Below, piece after piece: positions 3,123 to 10,616 of a DNA stretch of 64,000 nt; positions within the stretch are counted from its first letter, which is position 1; each line of letters opens with the position of its first letter. The notes under the pieces were generated by a model, which saw only the letters and a list, made by a program, of their open reading frames with translations, was not told where the DNA came from and made no database searches. The DNA comes from Escherichia phage MN04, in the sequence record MT129654.1. One strand, given 5' to 3'. A program made the position numbers and the translations under genes.

Positions 3123-3419
3123 ATGTACTATGCATACGTATTAGTTCACAAGGACAAAGATGGGTATGAAATTCCATTAGAAGATGCCGGTGAAGTGACT
3201 TTGTATTCGACAAAGATTGGAGCCGACACTGCTTTAGAGGCTTATGAAATCTCAACAAAAAGATATCTTCGGCTTGGACGCCTTGAAACAGTGTGCACGC
3301 CAAGAAAGTGGTGGTTTGATAAGTGGGAAACTAAAACGGTTTTTCCTACCAAAGAACGGGCCCGAGAATTAAAATTGATTTTAGACACTTTATATGTTAA
3401 GCGAGTAAAATTGGCATGA
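3123..3419 (+). CDS. Hypothetical protein (dda.1 position)
   Basis: ATG at 3123 (track starts at GTG 3120); stop overlaps dda start. Confidence 0.4.
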   Translation: MYYAYVLVHKDKDGYEIPLEDAGEVTLYSTKIGADTALEAYEISTKRYLRLGRLETVCTPRKWWFDKWETKTVFPTKERARELKLILDTLYVKRVKLA

Positions 3420-4747
3420 TTACATTTGAAGACTTGAATATTGGGCAACGGACGGCCTTTAAAGAAATCATTGAAGCTATTAAACGACGTAAGGGCGAAT
3501 GGATTACATTGAATGGTCCTGCTGGTACAGGTAAAACGACCCTTACTAAATTTATCCTTGACCACTTAGTCAAGAATGGCGAACTCGGAGTTATTTTGAC
3601 CGCACCTACACACGCGGCCAAGAAGGTATTGTCGAAACTCGCAGGCCAAGAAGCATCGACAATCCACCGAATCTTAAAGATTAACCCGACTACATACGAA
3701 GACCAGGATATTTTTGAACAACGTGAAGCTCCTGACTTGAGCAAATGTAATGTTCTTGTGGTCGACGAAGGCTCAATGATTGACGGTAAGTTGTTTAAGA
3801 TTATCGAAGCTTCAGTTCCGCCATGGTGCACTGTACTGGGGATTGGCGACCGAGCTCAGTTACAACCTGTAGAACCAGGAAGTGATGGAAGTCCTCAGTT
3901 GTCTCCATTCTTTACCCATCCTAAAATTAAACAGCTACACCTTACTGAAGTAATGCGTAGTAATGCTCCTATCATTGAGGTTGCTACTGAAATCCGTAAT
4001 GGTGGATGGTTCCGAGATTGTATATTCGAAGGTCACGGTGTCCATGGTTTTAAATCTCAAACGGCTTTAAAAGATTTTATGATGAATTATTTTTCCATCG
4101 TAAAAGATGCTGATGCCTTGTTTGAGAACAGGATGTTTGCTTATACAAATAAATCAGTTGAAAAACTGAATAGCATTATTCGTAAAAAGCTTTATGAAAC
4201 CGATACGCCTTATATCAAGGGCGAAATCCTCGTGATGCAAGAGCCTTTTATTAAGGAACTTGAATACGACGGTAAGAAATTCTCTGAAACCATTTTTAAT
4301 AACGGCCAGATGGTTCGTATTTTAGATGTGAACCACACCTCATTGTTCTTGTCTGCCAAGGATGTAGGCACTCGCCAGATGATTAATTACTGGGACCTCC
4401 AGGTTGAATCTGTTGATGAGGATGACGAGTACTATGTAGAACACTTGAAAGTTATTGATGAGGCTTCAGTTGAGAAGTTCCATTATTTCTTGGCTAAGGT
4501 GGCTACTGAGTACAAGGCTATGCGTGGAACAGGTAAGAAACCTAAGTGGGCTGATTTCTGGAAAGCTAAGAGAATGTTCACTAAGGTTCGAGCTCTTCCG
4601 GTGAGCACTGTCCATAAATCACAGGGTCTTACTGTCCAAAACAGTTTCATCTATACTCCGTGCATGCACATGGCAGATGCCAATTTAGCTTCACAGCTGG
4701 CTTATGTTAGTATTACCCGTGCTCGCACTGATGCCTATTATGTTTGA
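3416..4747 (+). CDS. dda: Dda DNA helicase (SF1B)
   Basis: 443 aa; Walker A GPAGTGKTT; long stretches matching T4 Dda as remembered (LTAPTHAAKK, PWCT..GIGD, TPCMH); dda.1-dda-dexA synteny. Confidence 0.95.
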   Translation: MITFEDLNIGQRTAFKEIIEAIKRRKGEWITLNGPAGTGKTTLTKFILDHLVKNGELGVILTAPTHAAKKVLSKLAGQEASTIHRILKINPTTYEDQDIFEQREAPDLSKCNVLVVDEGSMIDGKLFKIIEASVPPWCTVLGIGDRAQLQPVEPGSDGSPQLSPFFTHPKIKQLHLTEVMRSNAPIIEVATEIRNGGWFRDCIFEGHGVHGFKSQTALKDFMMNYFSIVKDADALFENRMFAYTNKSVEKLNSIIRKKLYETDTPYIKGEILVMQEPFIKELEYDGKKFSETIFNNGQMVRILDVNHTSLFLSAKDVGTRQMINYWDLQVESVDEDDEYYVEHLKVIDEASVEKFHYFLAKVATEYKAMRGTGKKPKWADFWKAKRMFTKVRALPVSTVHKSQGLTVQNSFIYTPCMHMADANLASQLAYVSITRARTDAYYV

Positions 4748-4754
4748 GGAAAAT

Positions 4755-4994
4755 ATGATTAAAGTAACTAAAGACCAATTTTATAAGTTGAAATTCGAGA
4801 CGGAATATATTATTAAGGTCAACCCAGACGATACAAATATCCGTGGCAAGGCTCATAAGGTCTTGCATTCACTTAAAGAGATTGAAAGTGATTTTATTGC
4901 AGTGCAAAAACTGATGGACGACAATATCTCTTCGGTTTATATTGAAGACTATACTGTTGGCCAAATCCGAGACCTTATGAGGTACGTTAAATGA
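4755..4994 (+). CDS. Hypothetical protein (dexA.1/dexA.2 position)
   Basis: 79-aa ORF from ATG 4755 with SD ggagg-like (tgaggaaaat) upstream; stop overlaps dexA start. Confidence 0.4.
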   Translation: MIKVTKDQFYKLKFETEYIIKVNPDDTNIRGKAHKVLHSLKEIESDFIAVQKLMDDNISSVYIEDYTVGQIRDLMRYVK

Positions 4995-5665
4995 AAGATA
5001 TAATTATTGACTTCGAAACCTTTGCCACTACCCAAAATGCAGCAGTTATCGACCTCGCCGTAATTGCTTATGACCCTAATCCAGAGGTAGTAGAATCGTT
5101 TGAAGAGCTTACTCAACGCGGTCTTCGTATTAAATTTGATTTGGCTTCTCAACGCGATAAACGTCTGTTCTCTAAAAGCACATTGCAGTGGTGGAAAGAA
5201 CAAGGACCTGAAGCACGTAAAAACCTGGCTCCGTCCGAAATTGATGTGAGTACTTCTATCGGCATTGGTAATTTCCTGGAATACTGCCGTAAAAACGAAG
5301 TGGACCAATGGAAATCCCAGATGTGGTGCCGCGGAATGTCCTTTGACTTTCCGATCTTAGTCGACCTTATTCGTGATGCTTATCGTTCTGAAGGTGTTCC
5401 TGAGAACGAAATCGATACAACTAAGTTGGAACCGGTTAAATTCTGGAACCAACGTGATATCCGCACGGCCATTGAAGCCTATTCACTGACGCGTGGATTA
5501 AGCATGTGCCCTCTGCCTAACGGAACATTGAATGGCTTTGTAGCCCATGACTCTATCCATGACTGTGCTAAGGATATCTTGATGCTGAAATATGCCCAAC
5601 GATATGCTTTAAACCTGGAAGATGTTCCTGAGAATCCAGACCCATTAAGTGTAAAAAATCGATAA
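4991..5665 (+). CDS. dexA: Exonuclease A (DnaQ-like 3'-5' exonuclease)
   Basis: 224 aa; N-terminal MKDIIIDFETFATT exo motif I (D-x-E); size and position match T4 DexA. Confidence 0.85.
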   Translation: MKDIIIDFETFATTQNAAVIDLAVIAYDPNPEVVESFEELTQRGLRIKFDLASQRDKRLFSKSTLQWWKEQGPEARKNLAPSEIDVSTSIGIGNFLEYCRKNEVDQWKSQMWCRGMSFDFPILVDLIRDAYRSEGVPENEIDTTKLEPVKFWNQRDIRTAIEAYSLTRGLSMCPLPNGTLNGFVAHDSIHDCAKDILMLKYAQRYALNLEDVPENPDPLSVKNR

Positions 5666-5669
5666 AAGT

Positions 5670-5698
5670 GTTTACTTCTCCTCATGACATGATATTAT
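5670..5698 (+). promoter_or_regulatory. T4-type early promoter embedded in an 11-bp inverted repeat
   Basis: GTTTAC 5670-5675, TATTAT 5693-5698; arms ttctcctcatg (5676-5686) and catgaggagaa (5711-5721) bracket the -10 and the SD. Confidence 0.6.
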
Positions 5699-5725
5699 CT
5701 ACCCTATCAACATGAGGAGAACAAA

Positions 5726-6229
5726 ATGAAAATTTATCGAGTTGAGTCATCGTTCAGTATCTTAGATGATGGAAACGCTATCACAATACGACGAGACCTC
5801 TGTACTCAAATGACTCCGTATAGAAGTACAATGGACTCATGGAGTGAAGGCTGGTTATTGGAAGTAGGTTTCGACAGACCCAATTTTAAGCATCGTCATA
5901 CCATCAATAAAAATATTCCACTACCAAGTCAAGATAAGTTGCTGGTAGAAAATTCTAATAAAACCATTAGAACTAAGTGGAAACGGCCTGATTATGAAGA
6001 CTGTGATGATTATATTCCAGGTTGGTTTGTTAACCTCTACCATTTTGCTTTTGCCAGTGAGTATGATATGATGCGCTGGTTCACTCGTGAAGAGCGTAAA
6101 GAATTATCTTCTAAAGGATTCTATCTTGCCGTTTACGAAATACCTGAAGATGAGGTAGTCATTGGTGACCGCCAAGTAATGTTCCGCAAGTCCCATGCTG
6201 AACTCGTAGATTTTATTGAAATGAGATAA
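5726..6229 (+). CDS. Hypothetical early protein (MotB position by synteny)
   Basis: 167 aa, similar size to T4 MotB (162 aa); position dexA -> motB; no motif evidence. Confidence 0.4.
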   Translation: MKIYRVESSFSILDDGNAITIRRDLCTQMTPYRSTMDSWSEGWLLEVGFDRPNFKHRHTINKNIPLPSQDKLLVENSNKTIRTKWKRPDYEDCDDYIPGWFVNLYHFAFASEYDMMRWFTREERKELSSKGFYLAVYEIPEDEVVIGDRQVMFRKSHAELVDFIEMR

Positions 6230-6231
6230 TT

Positions 6232-6783
6232 ATGAAATTTAATTATAATCCCAAATACACACCGAACCCGGCGGCCAAATTGATTGATTTTGATGTTTTA
6301 AGCACTTATGCAGCCCCTATTGAACCATTAGAAATTAAGGAAACCACTATGACTACTCAGACTATCGAAATCGGTAAAACCTACAAACTGGTTGAACCTG
6401 AAATTAAAACTAAGGCCTTGATTTCTGGTTATAAAACTCTGACTGATGTTTTTGGCGAAGGCGAATTTATTGTTGAAGAATTCGCTAAAAGTGAGTGGTT
6501 TGACAAATCTTACGTCATCCACGGTCGCCGGTTAGATAATAACAAAATAGAGAAAAACCTGGTTTATGAAGATGAATTTGGGCTTTTCCGTGAAGTCGGA
6601 GTCGAACAAGACCCTACAGACCTGTTGTGTGCTGCTGTGGCTATCCGTCGTCCTTTTGATAATCCTATCTGTGGTTGGGTAACAGACCAGTGGATTGAAG
6701 ATGGTGTTGAACTCCTGAACGTTGTACATGCTGGTGATTTTAGCGTAGTACCTCGTAGTGCAGTGGTTAATGTATTGAATTAA
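6232..6783 (+). CDS. Hypothetical protein, paralog A of a tandem pair
   Basis: 183 aa; C-terminal block GWVTDQWIEDGVELLNVVHAGDFSVVP shared with the next ORF. Confidence 0.5.
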   Translation: MKFNYNPKYTPNPAAKLIDFDVLSTYAAPIEPLEIKETTMTTQTIEIGKTYKLVEPEIKTKALISGYKTLTDVFGEGEFIVEEFAKSEWFDKSYVIHGRRLDNNKIEKNLVYEDEFGLFREVGVEQDPTDLLCAAVAIRRPFDNPICGWVTDQWIEDGVELLNVVHAGDFSVVPRSAVVNVLN

Positions 6784-6785
6784 TA

Positions 6786-6814
6786 GTTTACTTTATCGAG
6801 AGCCATGTTATAAT
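6786..6814 (+). promoter_or_regulatory. T4-type early promoter with palindrome across the -10
   Basis: GTTTAC 6786-6791, TATAAT 6809-6814 centred in agagccatgttataatggctct. Confidence 0.6.
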
Positions 6815-6856
6815 GGCTCTTATGGATTATAATCCTTTAACCAAGAGAGAAAAATT

Positions 6857-7408
6857 ATGATTACTATCGGTGAAATTGTTCGTGTATCCAAAGAATCTCG
6901 CTCAAAAGCCGCAGGTCGTTTTGTTGAAGTTGCAGGTATTCGTACCAATTTAGTAGGTGGAATTAAAGAAGTTAAAGTGCGTATTATTCCTAAAAATGGC
7001 CAGACCGAAACCGAATTTGCTTATGTTCGCCCTAAATTTTTAAAATCGACTGAATTTACCGGATACATCGCTCCTGTAGTTGAAGAAGTTGAATCCCATG
7101 ATGGGTATGTATGTGAAAGCAATGATATTCGCGGCGTAGTAGCTCAAGACGTTGAAACTATTGACCAATCTCATGTCGGCGTTGATTTCAAATGGAAATT
7201 AGGTCGAGGAGTGTGTTTTAATACTCCTAAACCGTTCAAATATGTTGACGAACCTTTTGGTACTTACGAAACCAGTAGCATGTCTGGTTACATCACAGAC
7301 CAGTGGGTTGAAGGTGGCGTTAAGCTCTATAACATCGTGTTCCTTGGAACCTTTAAGGTTGTTCCTGAAAGCTTTATTGTTGAATATGCTAACATTCACC
7401 GTGCATAA
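6857..7408 (+). CDS. Hypothetical protein, paralog B of a tandem pair
   Basis: 183 aa; C-terminal block GYITDQWVEGGVKLYNIVFLGTFKVVP matches preceding ORF. Confidence 0.5.
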   Translation: MITIGEIVRVSKESRSKAAGRFVEVAGIRTNLVGGIKEVKVRIIPKNGQTETEFAYVRPKFLKSTEFTGYIAPVVEEVESHDGYVCESNDIRGVVAQDVETIDQSHVGVDFKWKLGRGVCFNTPKPFKYVDEPFGTYETSSMSGYITDQWVEGGVKLYNIVFLGTFKVVPESFIVEYANIHRA

Positions 7409-7569
7409 AGTTTAAAAAACAGTATACAATACGGTAGGGTAGTGATAAGATTACCCTATCAAAACAAATGAGTGAAATGGAGAATAAAAATGTTTGCACC
7501 TTATATTATGATTACAGTTATCGTTATCTGTCTGTATCTTTTAATTAAAGCTTGTTAAGGAGATTTAAA

Positions 7570-7791
7570 ATGACTACTAAAATCACTGCAAACTCGACTC
7601 GTGAAGAATTTGAAGATGTTCTGTTCAACCCTGATTTAATCGTGGTTCAAAAGGAACATTCTGATACGTTTTCTCATTTATCGTCGGTTTATGTATACGA
7701 AAATCAAGGTGATAAAAACCCTATGTATGCAGTGTTCCGTGAAATCACTGCTGAAGGCACCGACTTCTGGAAGGAAACTTACAATGCTTAA
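7570..7791 (+). CDS. Hypothetical small protein (cef position)
   Basis: 73-aa ORF from ATG 7570 with SD taaggag upstream; T4 Cef is 71 aa at the equivalent position. Confidence 0.35.
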   Translation: MTTKITANSTREEFEDVLFNPDLIVVQKEHSDTFSHLSSVYVYENQGDKNPMYAVFREITAEGTDFWKETYNA

Positions 7792-8287
7792 TCAAGAACT
7801 TGAATTTGAAAAAGGTAAATGGTACTATTTTAAAGATGACGCGGCAGAAGCTGAATTCCGTAAGCTGAATTCCCATAATATTAGGACTCCTAATAATTCT
7901 TCTATAGCAGATATTATTGTCAATTCTGAAGGTTTTTGCCCTGTTAGATTAGCGGCAGGTTATGTGATGAACGTGGACTTGGCTTATGGTGATAACATTG
8001 ATATGGTTTTATATCCAAGCGAGCGTAAATTCTTTACGGAAATGGTTGTAGTTGACAGTGAAGACGAATGGGCCGAAGATGGTTTTTCTGAAGAAGACCG
8101 GTCTGAACCGAGTGATTTCCCTTTGACTAAAATCACTATGGAAATGGGTTTAGTTGGCGGTGAAGACCAGTCTGAAGACGCAGCCCCATATGAACCGAGT
8201 GATTTCCCTTTGACTAAAATCACTATCTCCAATAATTCTGAAGCCTGGACTGTTTACCGGATGTTGAAAGCCCACTTTAAGGAATAA
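7784..8287 (+). CDS. Hypothetical acidic protein with internal tandem duplication (goF position)
   Basis: 167-aa ORF from ATG 7784; contains duplicated peptide EPSDFPLTKIT encoded by a perfect 35-bp direct repeat. Confidence 0.4.
   Translation: MLNQELEFEKGKWYYFKDDAAEAEFRKLNSHNIRTPNNSSIADIIVNSEGFCPVRLAAGYVMNVDLAYGDNIDMVLYPSERKFFTEMVVVDSEDEWAEDGFSEEDRSEPSDFPLTKITMEMGLVGGEDQSEDAAPYEPSDFPLTKITISNNSEAWTVYRMLKAHFKE
8105..8226 (+). repeat. Intragenic direct repeat (2 x 35 bp perfect, period 87 bp)
   Basis: gaaccgagtgatttccctttgactaaaatcactat at 8105-8139 and 8192-8226. Confidence 0.85.
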
Positions 8288-8288
8288 T

Positions 8289-8465
8289 ATGCCACTTTAT
8301 GATTACAAATGCCAATCCGAAGACTGTGCAAAAGAATACGAAAAAATCAAGAAAATCTCTGAAAGAGATAATGATGTTTGCCCTGATTGCCATCGGTTGG
8401 CTGTTCGGTTAGTTTCAGCTCCTAAACATGTTAACGGCGGGTTCTATGACCTGCTAACTAAGTGA
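8289..8465 (+). CDS. Small zinc-ribbon protein (CxxC ... CPxC)
   Basis: 58-aa ORF below track cutoff; YKCQSEDC ... CPDCHR, FmdB-like zinc-ribbon spacing. Confidence 0.5.
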   Translation: MPLYDYKCQSEDCAKEYEKIKKISERDNDVCPDCHRLAVRLVSAPKHVNGGFYDLLTK

Positions 8466-8471
8466 GAAATT

Positions 8472-8732
8472 ATGAAATATGTTAATCGTTCTATTGCAGC
8501 TCTTGTACTAGCAGTTTCGTTGGTTGGTTGTACTGATGCTGATAATGCCACCCGTGTATTGGATGCAAATGGCTACGAACAAATCCAAATCACAGGATAC
8601 AACTTATTTGGCTGTTCTGAAGATGATTTCCAACGTACAGGCTTTATTGCTGTAGGGCCGACAGGTAAAAGGGTTGAAGGAACAGTTTGTTCTGGGTTAT
8701 TCTTTAAAAAGTCAACCATTCGGTTTGATTAA
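8472..8732 (+). CDS. Putative lipoprotein
   Basis: 86 aa; signal peptide with lipobox LVGC (MKYVNRSIAALVLAVSLVGCTD). Confidence 0.5.
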   Translation: MKYVNRSIAALVLAVSLVGCTDADNATRVLDANGYEQIQITGYNLFGCSEDDFQRTGFIAVGPTGKRVEGTVCSGLFFKKSTIRFD

Positions 8733-8750
8733 GGGCTTCGGCCCTTTTAT
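8733..8750 (+). terminator. Rho-independent terminator
   Basis: gggcttcggccc hairpin followed by ttttat. Confidence 0.6.
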
Positions 8751-8798
8751 GCTTTAAGTGAAATGGGATAATATTCTCCTACTACATGAGGAAATAAC

Positions 8799-10616
8799 AT
8801 GATTAAGAATGAAATTAAAGTACTGTCCGACATTGAACATATCAAAAAACGTAGTGGGATGTATATTGGCTCAAGTGCTAATGAAGCTCACGGTCGATTC
8901 CTGTTTGGTAATTTTACCCAGGTGAACTATGTTCCAGGGCTAGTTAAATTAATTGACGAAATCATTGATAACTCTGTCGATGAAGCTATTCGTACCAATT
9001 TTAAATTTGCAAATAAAATCGATGTTCAAATTAAGAATAATCAGGTTTCAGTTTCTGATAATGGCCGTGGTATTCCTCAAGCAATGGTTACCGACCAAAA
9101 CGGTGAACAAATTCCGGGCCCTGTAGCTGCATGGACTATTCCAAAGGCCGGTGGTAACTTTGGAGATGACGCCGAGCGTAAAACAGGCGGCATGAACGGT
9201 GTTGGTAGTAGTTTAACTAATATCTTCTCTGTTTTGTTCACAGGCATCACCTCTGATGGTGAGAATGAGATTACTGTTAACTGTTCCAACGGAATGGAAA
9301 ACAAAGGTTGGTCTACTAAGAAATCTAAAGGTAAGGGTACTTCGGTTATATTCACCCCAGACTTTAACCATTTCGAAGAAAATAGTCTGTCCCAAATTTA
9401 TCTGGATATTACATTAGACCGTCTTCAAACACTGGCCGTAATTTATCCAGATATCCAATTTACTTTTAATGGTAAAAAAGTAGATGGCAACTTTAAAAAG
9501 TATGCTAAGCAATTTGGTGAAGACTTTGTAATCCAAGAAACCGATAATGTTTCGATGGCATTTACTCCTTCTCCGGACGGGTTCCGTCAACTGACGTATG
9601 TAAACAATATCCATACTAAGAACGGTGGTCACCACGTTGAATGTGTGTTTGATGATATCTGTGAGCACCTTCTGCCTGGTATTAAAAAGAAATATAAAGG
9701 AATCGAAGTAACTAAGGCTCGTGTTAAAGAATGCCTTACTATGGTAATGTTCATTCGTGATATGAGCAATATGCGTTTTGATTCGCAGACTAAAGAGCGA
9801 TTAACCTCTCCGTTTGGCGAGATTCGTAACCATATCCAAATTGATGCTAAGAAAATTGCAACGGCTATTCTTAAGGTCGATGGGTTGATTATGCCTATCG
9901 TCGAAGCCGCTTTAGCACGTAAACTCGCTGCCGAAAAAGCCGCCGAAACAAAAGCTGCTAAGAAAGCTTTGAAAGCCAAGGTCCATAAGCATATTAAAGC
10001 CAATATGTATGGCAAAGATGCTGATACGACTTTATTCCTTACGGAAGGTGATTCTGCAATGGGTCCTTTCATTGAAGTTCGTAATAAAGACCTCCAAGGT
10101 GGTTATCCGTTACGCGGAAAGGTTATGAATACCTGGGGTATGACTGCTGCTGATATCATGAAGAACAAAGAATTGTTTGATATCTGTGCAATCACTGGAC
10201 TGGTTATTGGTGAACCTGCAGATAAAACCAACTATCGTAATATCGCTATCATGACTGACGCCGATGTGGATGGTACTGGTTCGATTTATCCTTCGTTATT
10301 AGCTTTCTTTAGTCAGTGGCCGGAATTGTTTGAACAGGGACGAATTCGTTTCTGTAAGACTCCTGTAATCATTGCTCAGGTTGGTAAAGAACAGGAATGG
10401 TTCTATGATGTACCTAGTTATACCAAAGCTAAGGACTCTCTACCAAAACATTCCATTCGATATATTAAAGGTTTAGGTTCTCTTGAGAAAGCTGAATATC
10501 GTCGAATGATTCAAGACCCTAAATTTGATGTGGTTCAATTACCTGAAGATTGGAAAGAACAGTTCGAAATGCTCCTAGGGAATGACCCACAGCTGCGTAA
10601 GGCTTGGATGTCATAA
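8799..10616 (+). CDS. 39: DNA topoisomerase II large (ATPase) subunit, single fused 39/60-type ORF
   Basis: 605 aa; GHKL ATPase motif DNGRGIP, Toprim EGDSA; uninterrupted, unlike T4 where the C-terminal part is the separate gene 60. Confidence 0.9.
   Translation: MIKNEIKVLSDIEHIKKRSGMYIGSSANEAHGRFLFGNFTQVNYVPGLVKLIDEIIDNSVDEAIRTNFKFANKIDVQIKNNQVSVSDNGRGIPQAMVTDQNGEQIPGPVAAWTIPKAGGNFGDDAERKTGGMNGVGSSLTNIFSVLFTGITSDGENEITVNCSNGMENKGWSTKKSKGKGTSVIFTPDFNHFEENSLSQIYLDITLDRLQTLAVIYPDIQFTFNGKKVDGNFKKYAKQFGEDFVIQETDNVSMAFTPSPDGFRQLTYVNNIHTKNGGHHVECVFDDICEHLLPGIKKKYKGIEVTKARVKECLTMVMFIRDMSNMRFDSQTKERLTSPFGEIRNHIQIDAKKIATAILKVDGLIMPIVEAALARKLAAEKAAETKAAKKALKAKVHKHIKANMYGKDADTTLFLTEGDSAMGPFIEVRNKDLQGGYPLRGKVMNTWGMTAADIMKNKELFDICAITGLVIGEPADKTNYRNIAIMTDADVDGTGSIYPSLLAFFSQWPELFEQGRIRFCKTPVIIAQVGKEQEWFYDVPSYTKAKDSLPKHSIRYIKGLGSLEKAEYRRMIQDPKFDVVQLPEDWKEQFEMLLGNDPQLRKAWMS

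What the first reader, a model, noticed from the sequence alone, without database searches (positions are those of the whole stretch)
6232..7408. Tandem paralogous 183-aa proteins with a conserved C-terminal domain
The ORFs 6232-6783 and 6857-7408 are both exactly 183 aa and share a C-terminal block (GWVTDQWIEDGVELLNVVHAGDFSVVP vs GYITDQWVEGGVKLYNIVFLGTFKVVP) with divergent N-terminal halves. The second has its own early promoter. A duplicated early protein with a conserved domain and variable partner region is a typical layout for host-takeover or anti-defence factors, but no function is known.
Basis: seen in the sequence. Interest (0 to 1): 0.45.

Follow-up and report, generated by a model that had tools for sequence, protein, structure and literature searches.

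The report
Phage motB.1 and motB paralogue pair
The two neighbouring 183-residue genes are motB.1 and motB of a T4-like (JS98-type) phage; the pair and its shared C-terminal domain were published in 2021, and MotB is a known DNA-coating host-takeover protein, so the finding is real but not new.

Summary
ORFs 6232-6783 and 6857-7408 are both 183 aa. They share a C-terminal block (BLASTP E=3e-11; profile-profile probability 98.6%, E=8.5e-16) and have unrelated N-terminal halves.

ORF2 is MotB (Pfam PF17613, 172 bits; 99-100% identical to MotB of phages JS98 and MN04; 50% to T4 MotB). ORF1 is MotB.1 (PHROG 2333). The window is a Dhakavirus with T4 gene order: dexA, motB.2, motB.1, motB, cef, goF, 39.

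The shared C-terminal domain with different N-terminal domains, and the duplication idea, were published by Patterson-West et al. 2021. The LSm-like N-terminal domain of MotB.1 was published by Kim et al. 2025. MotB has a known function: it is an abundant early protein that binds DNA without sequence specificity, alters H-NS binding and is toxic to E. coli. "No function known" therefore holds only for MotB.1.

New details here:
- The shared module models as an SH3/Tudor-like barrel rather than the OB-fold predicted in 2021.
- It is acidic or neutral, whereas the KOW-like N-terminal domain of MotB is basic.
- The family has only 37 clusters among 1.84 billion representatives.
- A short linker motif is conserved across the family.
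- The T4 reference motB.1 has a one-base frameshift that 13 other T4-type records lack.

Novelty: already known.

The parts
6232..6783 (+). motB.1 (ORF1, 183 aa), a paralogue of MotB of unknown function
   Evidence: PHROG 2333 at E=9e-85 over the full length. Pfam motB PF17613 scores 34.6 bits (cut-off 25), on residues 144-178 only. JS98 annotates the orthologue as motB.1. The last 80 aa are 68% identical to full-length T4 MotB.1.
6232..6348 (+). N-terminal extension of MotB.1 (aa 1-39), absent from T4 MotB.1. It carries the conserved motif LIDFDVLSTYAAPIEPLEI (aa 17-35, nt 6280-6336).
   Evidence: The frame is open in 9 distinct sequences while the other two frames are full of stops. Variable sites by codon position are 13/9/19, and 49% of codon differences are synonymous. 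The motif [IV][IV]DxD[VI]xxMYxxPxxP[LI] recurs at different positions in at least 10 family clusters. AF2 pLDDT is about 30, i.e. predicted disordered. An internal Met40 with an AAGGA ribosome-binding site (6349) is an alternative start.
6349..6609 (+). N-terminal domain of MotB.1 (aa 40-126), a GoF-type LSm/SH3-like beta-barrel (tentative)
   Evidence: It matches PHROG 622 (the GoF family) weakly, E=5e-4. The same PHROG 2333 segment covers the T4 MotB.1 N-terminal domain, which is reported as LSm-like in PMC12152347. The AF2 model is beta-rich but has pLDDT of only about 60.
6610..6780 (+). C-terminal domain of MotB.1 (aa 127-183), the shared MotB-type small beta-barrel. The part homologous to MotB is aa 131-182 (nt 6622-6777).
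   Evidence: hhalign alignment. AF2 gives strands 149-156, 159-166 and 169-174 at pLDDT 80-91. Selection is strongly purifying: 19 distinct DNA sequences encode 8 peptide variants and 79% of codon differences are synonymous. Net charge is -5, pI 4.2.
6786..6814 (+). T4 early-type promoter of motB: GTTTAC, 17 nt, TGnTATAAT
   Evidence: Consensus scan, the sequence itself, and conservation in 11 phage loci of three genera. The T4 early promoter consensus is from my own knowledge.
6799..6820 (+). Conserved RNA hairpin just after the motB.1 stop codon. Its loop and 3' arm contain the -10 element of the motB promoter.
   Evidence: The intergenic RNA folds at -16.8 kcal/mol, z=-3.1. Seven pairs are 100% paired in 11 sequences, four of them with changes on both sides. 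No shuffle of 500 reaches the observed covariation score, and slid controls pair in only 30-47% of cells. G-U pairs occur on the sense strand.
6857..7408 (+). motB (ORF2, 183 aa), the phage DNA-binding, nucleoid-associated protein
   Evidence: Pfam PF17613 at E=1.3e-50, 171.9 bits. PHROG 1671 at E=7.5e-69. 100% identical to phage MN04 MotB and 99% to JS98 MotB. 50% identical to T4 MotB, E=3e-57.
6857..7045 (+). N-terminal domain of MotB (aa 1-63), a basic KOW/SH3-like barrel and the probable DNA-binding surface
7046..7180 (+). Acidic disordered linker of MotB (aa 64-108, net charge -9), with an insertion of about 24 aa relative to T4 MotB
   Evidence: BLASTP shows a gap against T4. The family alignment shows the insertion. 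AF2 pLDDT is below 50 for residues 66-104.
7181..7405 (+). C-terminal domain of MotB (aa 109-183), the shared small beta-barrel. The part homologous to MotB.1 is aa 114-178 (nt 7196-7390).
5670..5698 (+). Second early-type promoter (GTTTAC, 17 nt, TGnTATTAT) upstream of motB.2, which probably drives motB.2 and motB.1 together
   Evidence: Sequence and consensus scan. Its conservation in other phages was not tested.

Best explanation
These are the motB.1 and motB genes of a JS98-like (Dhakavirus) T-even phage. They sit in the usual early-gene block: dexA, motB.2, motB.1, motB, cef, goF, 39.

MotB (ORF2) is, by homology to T4 MotB, an abundant early protein. It coats double-stranded DNA without sequence specificity and reshapes H-NS-DNA complexes, so that H-NS-silenced genes are de-repressed and phage yield rises. 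It is built as beads on a string: a basic KOW/SH3-like N-terminal barrel, an acidic disordered linker, and a C-terminal SH3/Tudor-like barrel.

MotB.1 (ORF1) carries the same C-terminal barrel. Here it is fused to a GoF-type LSm/SH3-like barrel and to a 39-residue N-terminal tail that holds a conserved short motif. The whole protein is acidic and its function is unknown.

The pair arose by tandem duplication followed by exchange of the N-terminal module.

Inference, not shown: DNA binding in MotB comes mainly from the basic KOW-like N-terminal domain. The shared, acidic-to-neutral and very strongly conserved C-terminal barrel is then a common adaptor, used for self- or hetero-association or for contact with one common partner. 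MotB.1 would bring a different, possibly RNA-directed, head to the same adaptor.
For: Identity:
- Pfam motB hits both proteins above its cut-off, and PHROG 1671 and 2333 match.
- ORF2 is 99-100% identical to annotated MotB proteins and 50% identical to T4 MotB over the full length.
- Synteny matches JS98 and T4.
- motB.1 lies immediately upstream of motB in all 20 loci that carry a clear MotB, and RB69-like loci have three copies.

Paralogy: and published in PMC7827196.

MotB function: PMC6070864 reports DNA binding, toxicity, a 2-fold burst effect and co-purification with H-NS and StpA. PMC7827196 reports altered H-NS footprints and 75 up-regulated host genes, about one third of them in the H-NS regulon. 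Son et al. 2021 (NAR 49:9229), listed as reference 23 of PMC12152347, could not be read here.

Adaptor inference:
- The MotB N-terminal domain has pI 8.0-10.8 in all 26 members. The MotB C-terminal domain has net charge -8 to +2. MotB.1 is acidic in every segment.
- The C-terminal core of MotB.1 is under stronger purifying selection than that of MotB (79% against 67% synonymous codon differences).
- The module is combined with KOW-like, LSm-like, double LSm-like and other N-terminal domains.
Against: - No experiment has assigned DNA binding to either domain of MotB. The authors state that either domain could bind (PMC7827196).
- SH3-like barrels such as PWWP, HspQ/YccV and Tudor domains can bind nucleic acid. 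The invariant W, D/E and aromatic residues of the core could form a nucleic-acid or ligand pocket.
- The MotB.1 model is poor overall (mean pLDDT 54).
- AF3 gave no confident homomultimers for T4 MotB.1 in PMC12152347, although that work used the 119-aa form.
- Deletion of motB.1 in T4 has no phenotype (PMC12152347).
- The window's MotB has a net charge of about -2 because of its acidic linker, so its DNA-binding strength may differ from that of T4 MotB.
Confidence: 0.9

Rival explanations
1. The shared C-terminal module is itself the nucleic-acid-binding domain, as in the published 'cold-shock-like OB-fold' reading. Both proteins would then bind nucleic acid through it, and the N-terminal domains would only modulate specificity (KOW for DNA or RNA polymerase, LSm-like for RNA).
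Confidence: 0.3
2. MotB.1 is a redundant, decaying duplicate of motB with no function of its own.
For: T4 motB.1 amber and deletion mutants have normal plating efficiency, burst size and latent period (PMC12152347). The T4 reference copy is frameshifted. One deletion variant fuses the MotB.2 N-terminus to the MotB.1 tail (P0262).
Against: tblastn finds the gene in 747 phage records, 385 of them at 80% coverage or more. The C-terminal core is nearly invariant and most codon changes are synonymous. The frameshift is confined to one T4 record and its RefSeq copy, while 13 other T4-type records are intact. motB.1 is present next to motB in every locus examined.
Confidence: 0.07
3. One or both proteins are anti-defence factors. 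In this reading the variable N-terminal module tracks different host immune targets.
For: The genes are early, non-essential, rapidly shuffled by domain and located in a hypervariable block. H-NS silencing, which MotB counteracts, can be regarded as a host defence against foreign DNA (PMC7827196 discussion).
Against: There is no hit to any defence-related library. No literature links MotB or MotB.1 to a dedicated immune system. The N-terminal modules are generic nucleic-acid-type barrels. The C-terminal domain, not a target-specific surface, is the most conserved part.
Confidence: 0.1

Closest known systems
T4 MotB (NP_049626; Pfam PF17613 'Modifier of transcription'; PHROG 1671)
   Same: ORF2 is 50% identical over the full length, E=3e-57. 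It has the same KOW-like N-terminal signature (VxVSxxSRSKAAG), the same C-terminal core (GYITDQWVExGVKLYNxVFLGT) and the same map position between motB.1 and cef. It is also served by an early promoter.
   Different: The window's MotB is 183 aa against 162 aa in T4. It has an acidic insertion of about 24 aa in the disordered linker (aa ~64-108, net -9), which makes the whole protein roughly neutral, whereas T4 MotB is basic. No biochemistry exists for the Dhakavirus form.
T4 MotB.1 (NP_049627; PHROG 2333), described in Patterson-West 2021 and Kim 2025
   Same: ORF1 is 68% identical over the last 80 residues, covering the end of the N-terminal domain, the DPTDLL segment and the C-terminal barrel. 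It belongs to the same PHROG, lies in the same position directly upstream of motB, and shows the same weak link to the GoF family.
   Different: ORF1 has a 39-aa N-terminal extension with the DxDVxxxY...P motif, which T4 lacks. Residues 1-103 are not alignable to T4 by BLASTP. The T4 reference protein is annotated as only 119 aa because of one extra G, and the intact T4 form is 143 aa.
GoF / Frd.2 family of LSm-like phage proteins (PHROG 622; PMC12152347)
   Same: The N-terminal domain of ORF1 (aa 44-127) matches the GoF PHROG at E=5e-4, as does the T4 MotB.1 N-terminal domain at E=2e-3. The models are all-beta. goF lies about 1 kb downstream in the same early block.
   Different: The similarity is marginal: hhalign of the ORF1 family against the window's GoF finds nothing in the N-terminal domain. 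GoF has no MotB-type C-terminal domain. No RNA effect was seen for MotB.1 in the reporter assay (PMC12152347).
Tandem small-barrel readers: Spt5 KOW6-KOW7, 53BP1 and UHRF1 tandem Tudor, SAWADEE
   Different: There is no sequence relationship (6-19% identity) and no significant Foldseek E-value. In MotB the barrels are joined by a long disordered linker rather than packed together. This is an analogy, not family membership.
Other phage antagonists of H-NS (T7 gp5.5, T4 Arn)
   Same: They have the same functional outcome as MotB, namely relief of H-NS silencing early in infection (PMC7827196 discussion).
   Different: Those proteins bind H-NS directly. [quoted passage not shown] The folds are unrelated.

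Membership tests
MotB family (Pfam PF17613) | Score above the Pfam gathering cut-off (25 bits) | tested here: met
   ORF2 scores 171.9 bits over profile positions 65-159 plus a second stretch. ORF1 scores 34.6 bits, but only on profile positions 119-153, i.e. the C-terminal core.
MotB family (Pfam PF17613) | KOW-like basic N-terminal domain with the VxVSxxSRSKxAG signature | tested here: met
   Met for ORF2: VRVSKESRSKAAG at aa 8-20, pI 10.4, AF2 barrel at pLDDT ~80. Not met for ORF1, which has no such motif. ORF1 is therefore a paralogue that shares only the C-terminal domain.
MotB family (Pfam PF17613) | Conserved map position in the Tevenvirinae early block between dexA/motB.2 and cef | tested here: met
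   The window's gene order matches the JS98 and T4 annotation.
MotB family (Pfam PF17613) | Tight, sequence-nonspecific DNA binding, altered H-NS footprints and toxicity in E. coli | not testable with these tools
   Shown only for T4 MotB (PMC6070864, PMC7827196). Inferred for ORF2 from 50% identity.
MotB.1 family (PHROG 2333) | Full-length profile match | tested here: met
   ORF1 matches at E=9.4e-85, residues 1-183 against profile positions 1-210. Intact T4 MotB.1 matches the same PHROG at E=1.8e-68.
MotB.1 family (PHROG 2333) | MotB-type C-terminal domain preceded by the DPTDLL segment, encoded immediately upstream of motB | tested here: met
   DPTDLL is at aa 127-132 and the TDQWIEDG core at aa 151-158. 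Adjacency holds in all 20 loci that have a clear MotB.
LSm-like fold phage proteins (GoF / MotB.1 / Frd.2; Kim 2025) | N-terminal five-stranded bent antiparallel beta-sheet (LSm/SH3-like) | tested here: inconclusive
   The AF2 model of ORF1 aa 45-121 is beta-rich (about 6 strands and a short helix) but pLDDT is only about 60. PHROG 622 matches at E=5e-4. hhalign against the window's GoF is negative.
OB-fold, cold-shock DNA-binding domain (SCOPe b.40.4.5), the published assignment for the MotB C-terminal domain | Five-stranded barrel with a helix between strands 3 and 4, and structural neighbours that are OB-folds | tested here: not met

The most novel reading that the evidence does not exclude
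The shared C-terminal barrel is not a DNA-binding domain but a common docking module, through which MotB and MotB.1 (and, in RB69-like phages, a third copy) self-associate or hetero-associate, or bind one host partner. The conserved disordered motif [IV][IV]DxD[VI]xxMYxxPxxP[LI] (ORF1 aa 17-35) would be a second, portable partner-binding peptide. MotB.1 would then tune MotB's nucleoid compaction, or link RNA to it, rather than act alone. In that case published negative results for MotB.1 would need repeating, because they used the 119-aa frameshifted T4 form, which lacks most of this barrel.
Probability: 0.2. Interest if true: 0.5.

Novelty: already known. Interest (0 to 1): 0.18.

Why it matters
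As a discovery it matters little. The gene pair, its shared C-terminal domain, the duplication hypothesis and the host-takeover role of MotB are all in the literature, and ORF2 is identical to an already annotated protein.

Three by-products are of practical use.

1. The T4 reference sequence (NC_000866/AF158101) appears to carry a one-base frameshift in motB.1. It removes most of the very domain that defines the family, and the only functional tests of MotB.1 used that 119-aa version. Anyone studying MotB.1 should use the 143-aa (T4) or roughly 180-aa form.

2. The C-terminal module looks like an SH3/Tudor-like barrel and is acidic. This shifts the likely DNA-binding surface of MotB to the KOW-like N-terminal domain and suggests simple domain-dissection experiments.

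3. The family is tiny and confined to T4-like phages, yet it recombines its modules freely. That makes it a tidy example of domain shuffling among early phage genes.

Tried and rejected
- Sequence search of both proteins against the PDB found only chance matches: designed 'Pizza' NHL-type propellers through a YVTD-like motif, E of 0.0085 and weaker, and a kinase at E=0.07. The same artefact probably explains the multi-stretch hits to 600-1500-aa proteins in the representative search (P0261, P0263-P0269, P0272). I did not inspect those proteins.
- NCBIfam and PADLOC gave no hits.
- hhalign of the MotB.1 family against the window's GoF found no N-terminal similarity, only an 11-residue 'DEWAEDG' resemblance at probability 1.8%, which I treat as chance.
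- The AF2 model of ORF1 was too poor (mean pLDDT 54) to justify a fold search.
- The key NAR 2021 MotB paper (Son et al.) is not held in the library. Its content is cited only through other papers' reference lists and from memory.
- Tandem Repeats Finder found nothing in 5500-8900.
- I considered that the 39-aa N-terminal extension of ORF1 might be untranslated, with translation starting at Met40. I rejected this as the sole reading because of the coding signature and the motif's conservation, but Met40 remains a possible second start.
- I considered programmed frameshifting for T4 motB.1 and rejected it, because 13 other T4-type records simply lack the extra base.
Full report
**1. What is there**

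The window is a T-even phage of the genus Dhakavirus. The 3.2-kb stretch 5600-8800 is 96.9% identical to phage UP19 and 96% identical to JS98. The ORF map is as follows.

| Gene | Coordinates (+ strand) |
|---|---|
| dda | 3416-4747 |
| dexA.1 | 4704-4994 |
| dexA | 4991-5665 |
| motB.2 | 5726-6229 |
| ORF1 | 6232-6783 |
| ORF2 | 6857-7408 |
| cef | ~7570-7791 |
| goF | 7784-8287 |
| 39.2 | 8289-8465 |
| 39.1 | 8472-8732 |
| gene 39 | from 8799 |

This is the gene order annotated in JS98 and, on the other strand, in T4. In JS98 the orthologues of ORF1 and ORF2 are named motB.1 and motB.

**2.

- Both ORFs are 183 aa and contain the quoted peptides.
- BLASTP between them gives 48% identity over 40 residues, E=3e-11, and nothing significant elsewhere.
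- I built family alignments of 15 MotB.1-type sequences (A1) and 26 MotB-type sequences (A2).
- Profile-profile comparison of A1 and A2 gives probability 98.6% and E=8.5e-16. It aligns ORF1 131-182 to ORF2 114-178, with an insertion of about 13 residues in MotB after the first strand.
- Pfam's motB model (PF17613) hits ORF2 at 171.9 bits. It hits ORF1 at 34.6 bits, on the C-terminal core only. The cut-off is 25 bits.
- PHROGs places ORF2 in 1671 ('MotB-like transcriptional regulator') and ORF1 in 2333 (unknown function), with cross-hits restricted to the C-terminus.
- The identical length is accidental. Relatives of ORF1 are 176-183 or 245-250 aa, and relatives of ORF2 are 143-197 aa.
- A profile of the shared module finds only these two copies in the six-frame translation of the window.

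**3. It is already described**

Patterson-West et al. 2021 (PMC7827196) report the following:
- One gene may have arisen from duplication of the other.
- Forty other phages besides T4 carry both genes.
- RB69 has extra copies.

They predicted a KOW-like N-terminal domain and an OB-fold C-terminal domain for MotB by HHpred.

Kim et al. 2025 (PMC12152347) add these points:
- The N-terminal domain of MotB.1 is an LSm/SH3-like barrel related to those of GoF and Frd.2.
- T4 motB.1 amber and deletion mutants grow normally.
- MotB.1 has no effect in their RNA reporter assay.

MotB itself is characterised:
- It is toxic in E. coli.
- It binds unmodified and glucosyl-hydroxymethylcytosine DNA tightly and without sequence specificity.
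- It doubles burst size (PMC6070864).
- It changes H-NS footprints and up-regulates 75 host genes, about a third of them H-NS-repressed (PMC7827196).

A further paper (Son et al. 2021, NAR 49:9229, listed as reference 23 in PMC12152347) reports DNA compaction and de-repression of H-NS silencing. It is not in the library, so I cite only its title.

**4. Anatomy of ORF2 (MotB)**

ORF2 is 100% identical to MotB of phage MN04, 99% to JS98 and 50% to T4 MotB. The main difference from T4 is a gap of about 24 residues in the middle. The AF2 model has mean pLDDT 72.

| Segment | Residues | Model | Net charge / pI |
|---|---|---|---|
| N-terminal barrel | 1-62 | pLDDT ~80 | +7 / 10.4 |
| Linker | 66-104 | disordered, pLDDT <50 | about -9 |
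| C-terminal barrel | 110-180 | pLDDT ~90 | 0 / 6.7 |

- The C-terminal strands are 118-131, 135-152, 155-162, 165-170 and 174-177. A 3-10 helix at 171-173 lies between strands 4 and 5.
- That order is the SH3-like order: a long RT-loop-like hairpin after strand 1, tight turns, and a 3-10 helix before the last strand. An OB-fold would have a helix between strands 3 and 4.
- Foldseek aligns both domains together (170-200 columns) to tandem Tudor domains of 53BP1 and UHRF1, to SAWADEE and to KOW6-KOW7, at weak E-values of 0.01-0.1.
- No OB-fold appears among these hits. I therefore read MotB as two SH3-like barrels on a flexible string, which refines the published OB-fold prediction. This rests on a model, and I could not inspect its coordinates.
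- The insertion in MotB relative to MotB.1 maps to the hairpin after strand 1.

**5. Anatomy of ORF1 (MotB.1)**

*C-terminal domain.* The last 80 residues are 68% identical to intact T4 MotB.1. Residues 1-103 are not alignable to T4 by BLASTP, although both N-terminal domains fall in PHROG 2333.

*N-terminal domain.* Both the window's and T4's N-terminal domains weakly match the GoF family (PHROG 622, E=5e-4 and 2e-3). The AF2 model is poor overall (pLDDT 54). It is confident only for the three core strands 149-174 (pLDDT 80-91) and shows a beta-rich N-terminal domain at pLDDT ~60.

*N-terminal extension.* Residues 1-39 are an extension that T4 lacks. It appears to be translated:
- The frame is open in nine distinct sequences, while the other frames are full of stops.
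- Third codon positions vary most (13/9/19 variable sites by position).
- Half of the codon differences are synonymous.
- Longer relatives of 245-250 aa read through it from an additional N-terminal domain.

An internal Met40 with an AAGGA ribosome-binding site could serve as a second start.

*Conserved motif.* The extension carries the motif [IV][IV]DxD[VI]xxMYxxPxxP[LI] (LIDFDVLSTYAAPIEPLEI, aa 17-35). The motif recurs in at least ten other family clusters at different places: at the N-terminus, or between the N-terminal domain and the C-terminal barrel. Within the window it occurs only in ORF1.

*Charge.* ORF1 is acidic in every segment: extension -1, N-terminal domain -5, C-terminal domain -5.

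**6. The family**

- A profile of the shared module (A3) was scored against 1.84 billion representative proteins. It finds only 37 clusters at E<=0.001, and 23 at E<=1e-10.
- The confident hits are all small proteins (43-251 aa) that carry the same module.
- The BFVD fold search returns only T4-like and a few other phage proteins.
- tblastn finds ORF1 relatives in 747 phage records from hosts in Escherichia, Shigella, Klebsiella, Yersinia, Salmonella, Enterobacter, Citrobacter and Edwardsiella.

The architectures seen are:
- KOW-like domain plus MotB-type C-terminal domain.
- LSm-like domain plus C-terminal domain.
- Two LSm-like domains plus C-terminal domain (P0244).
- An extra N-terminal domain plus LSm-like domain plus C-terminal domain (P0066, P0254).
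- KOW-like domain plus MotB.1-type C-terminal domain (P0243, P0249-P0253, P0257, P0258, P0260).
- A 43-aa deletion product that joins the MotB.2 N-terminus to the MotB.1 tail (P0262).

I examined 27 loci. In every locus with a clear MotB, a motB.1-type gene lies directly upstream. RB69-like loci have three copies in tandem. More distant phages have a single gene.

The 30-residue core is under strong purifying selection:

| Core | Distinct DNA sequences | Peptide variants | Synonymous codon differences |
|---|---|---|---|
| MotB.1 | 19 | 8 | 79% |
| MotB | 14 | 9 | 67% |

**7. Expression signals**

- Between the genes lies GTTTAC (6786-6791), 17 nt, TGnTATAAT (TATAAT at 6809-6814). The T4 early promoter consensus is from my own knowledge.
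- Both elements are conserved across 11 loci of three genera.
- A similar element (GTTTAC, 17 nt, TGnTATTAT; 5670-5698) precedes motB.2. motB.2 and motB.1 are therefore probably one early transcription unit, and motB another.
- An RNA hairpin at 6799-6820 encloses the -10 element of the motB promoter.
- Its seven pairs are 100% paired in 11 sequences, and four pairs change on both sides.
- No shuffle of 500 reaches the observed covariation score, and slid controls pair in only 30-47% of cells.
- G-U pairs appear only on the sense strand. The fold has z=-3.1.
- The hairpin's role is not known. It could be a 3'-end or stability element for the upstream transcript, or it could couple read-through with promoter use.

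**8. How it most likely works**

*Shown elsewhere for T4 MotB and transferred by homology.* MotB is made early and in large amounts. It coats DNA and reshapes H-NS-DNA complexes, which relieves H-NS silencing and improves yield.

*Inferred here.*
- The KOW-like N-terminal domain is basic in all 26 family members (pI 8.0-10.8).
- The C-terminal barrel ranges from -8 to +2, and it is clearly acidic in MotB.1.
- The simplest reading is that the N-terminal domain supplies most of the DNA affinity.
- The shared barrel would then supply something common to both paralogues: self- or hetero-association, or contact with one partner.
- The exchangeable N-terminal head would decide what is brought to it.
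- The acidic linker of the Dhakavirus MotB could moderate DNA binding.

None of this has been tested. The authors of the MotB papers regard either domain as a possible DNA binder.

*Rivals.*
- The C-terminal domain is the nucleic-acid binder (confidence 0.3).
- MotB.1 is a functionless duplicate (0.07). Its conservation argues against this.
- The proteins have an anti-defence role (0.1). There is no evidence for it.

**9. By-product: the T4 reference**

- In NC_000866.4/AF158101.6, motB.1 is annotated as 119 aa ending GWVTDQWIGRWR. The next frame continues with EDGVELLNVVHAGEYSVVPRSAVVAILN, which is the conserved core.
- A re-sequenced T4 (OZ209057.1) differs by one G (ATTGAAGATGG instead of ATTGGAAGATGG) and encodes a 143-aa protein.
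- Thirteen T4 or T4-like records match the intact version exactly over 101 bases. Only the original reference and its RefSeq copy carry the extra base.
- Kim et al. 2025 give T4 MotB.1 as 13.8 kDa. They state that gene synthesis was by GenScript unless otherwise indicated, and they cite NC_000866.4 for their T4 sequences.
- Their negative results may therefore apply to a protein that lacks most of the shared barrel. I cannot tell whether their phage stock carries the extra G.

**10. Verdict**

Novelty: already known. Interest is low (0.18). The residual interest lies in the untested role of the shared barrel and of the conserved linker motif, and in the T4 annotation problem.

Noticed in passing
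L003 (NC_000866.4 5000-11000), minus strand, locus ~2292-2310, i.e. record ~7291-7310. Compare L004:412-843 (OZ209057.1).: The T4 reference genome has one extra G in motB.1 (ATTGGAAGATGG instead of ATTGAAGATGG). This truncates the annotated protein to 119 aa and cuts off the conserved C-terminal core. Thirteen other T4 or T4-like records lack the extra base and encode 143 aa. Published MotB.1 experiments appear to have used the 119-aa (13.8 kDa) form.
   Followed up: yes
window 6799-6820 (+): A conserved 7-8 bp RNA hairpin lies directly after the motB.1 stop codon. Its loop and 3' arm contain the -10 TATAAT of the motB early promoter. It is 100% paired in 11 phages, four pairs show compensatory changes, and G-U pairs occur only on the sense strand. 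Its function is unknown.
   Followed up: partly
window 6280-6336 (+) (ORF1 aa 17-35); also P0244, P0246, P0248, P0250, P0251, P0253, P0256, P0257, P0258, P0260: A short motif, [IV][IV]DxD[VI]xxMYxxPxxP[LI], lies in predicted disordered segments. Across the MotB/MotB.1 family it occupies different positions relative to the domains. It looks like a portable binding peptide, but no partner is known.
   Followed up: partly
window 7046-7180 (+) (MotB aa 64-108): The Dhakavirus MotB has an acidic (net -9), predicted disordered linker that is about 24 residues longer than in T4. It contains two similar stretches (VEEVESHDGYV and VETIDQSHVGV), and its DGYVCESNDI segment resembles the start of the linker motif seen in other family members.
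   Followed up: partly
window 7784-8287 (+), insertion at about 8111-8176: The window's GoF is 167 aa against 145 aa in JS98. The difference is a 22-residue insertion (RSEPSDFPLTKITMEMGLVGG) that partly duplicates the following EPSDFPLTKIT segment.
   Followed up: partly
window 7491-7559 (+): A 22-codon hydrophobic ORF (MFAPYIMITVIVICLYLLIKAC) lies in the motB-cef spacer. It has a GGAG ribosome-binding site, and its stop codon overlaps the cef ribosome-binding site. It is absent from the 16 other phage loci examined. An inverted repeat (TAGGGTA...TACCCTA, ~7433-7457) lies just upstream.
   Followed up: partly
window 5670-5698 (+): A second T4-early-type promoter (GTTTAC, 17 nt, TGnTATTAT) lies upstream of motB.2. 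This suggests that motB.2 and motB.1 form one early unit, separate from motB.
   Followed up: no
P0262 (43 aa, from the representative search); L017, L020, L021: P0262 is a deletion variant that fuses the first 14 residues of MotB.2 to the last 28 residues of MotB.1. In RB69-like loci the motB.1-motB spacer (promoter remnant GTTGTAC...TATAGC) is read as an N-terminal extension of the annotated MotB (MLYIQGWMEY...), which is probably an annotation artefact.
   Followed up: no
P0261, P0263, P0264, P0266-P0269, P0272; PDB 'Pizza' propellers: The G[YW][IV]TDxW core weakly resembles the YVTD motif of NHL-type beta-propeller blades. This probably explains the multi-stretch low-score hits to large repeat proteins. 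I judged them to be chance similarity without inspecting those proteins.
   Followed up: no
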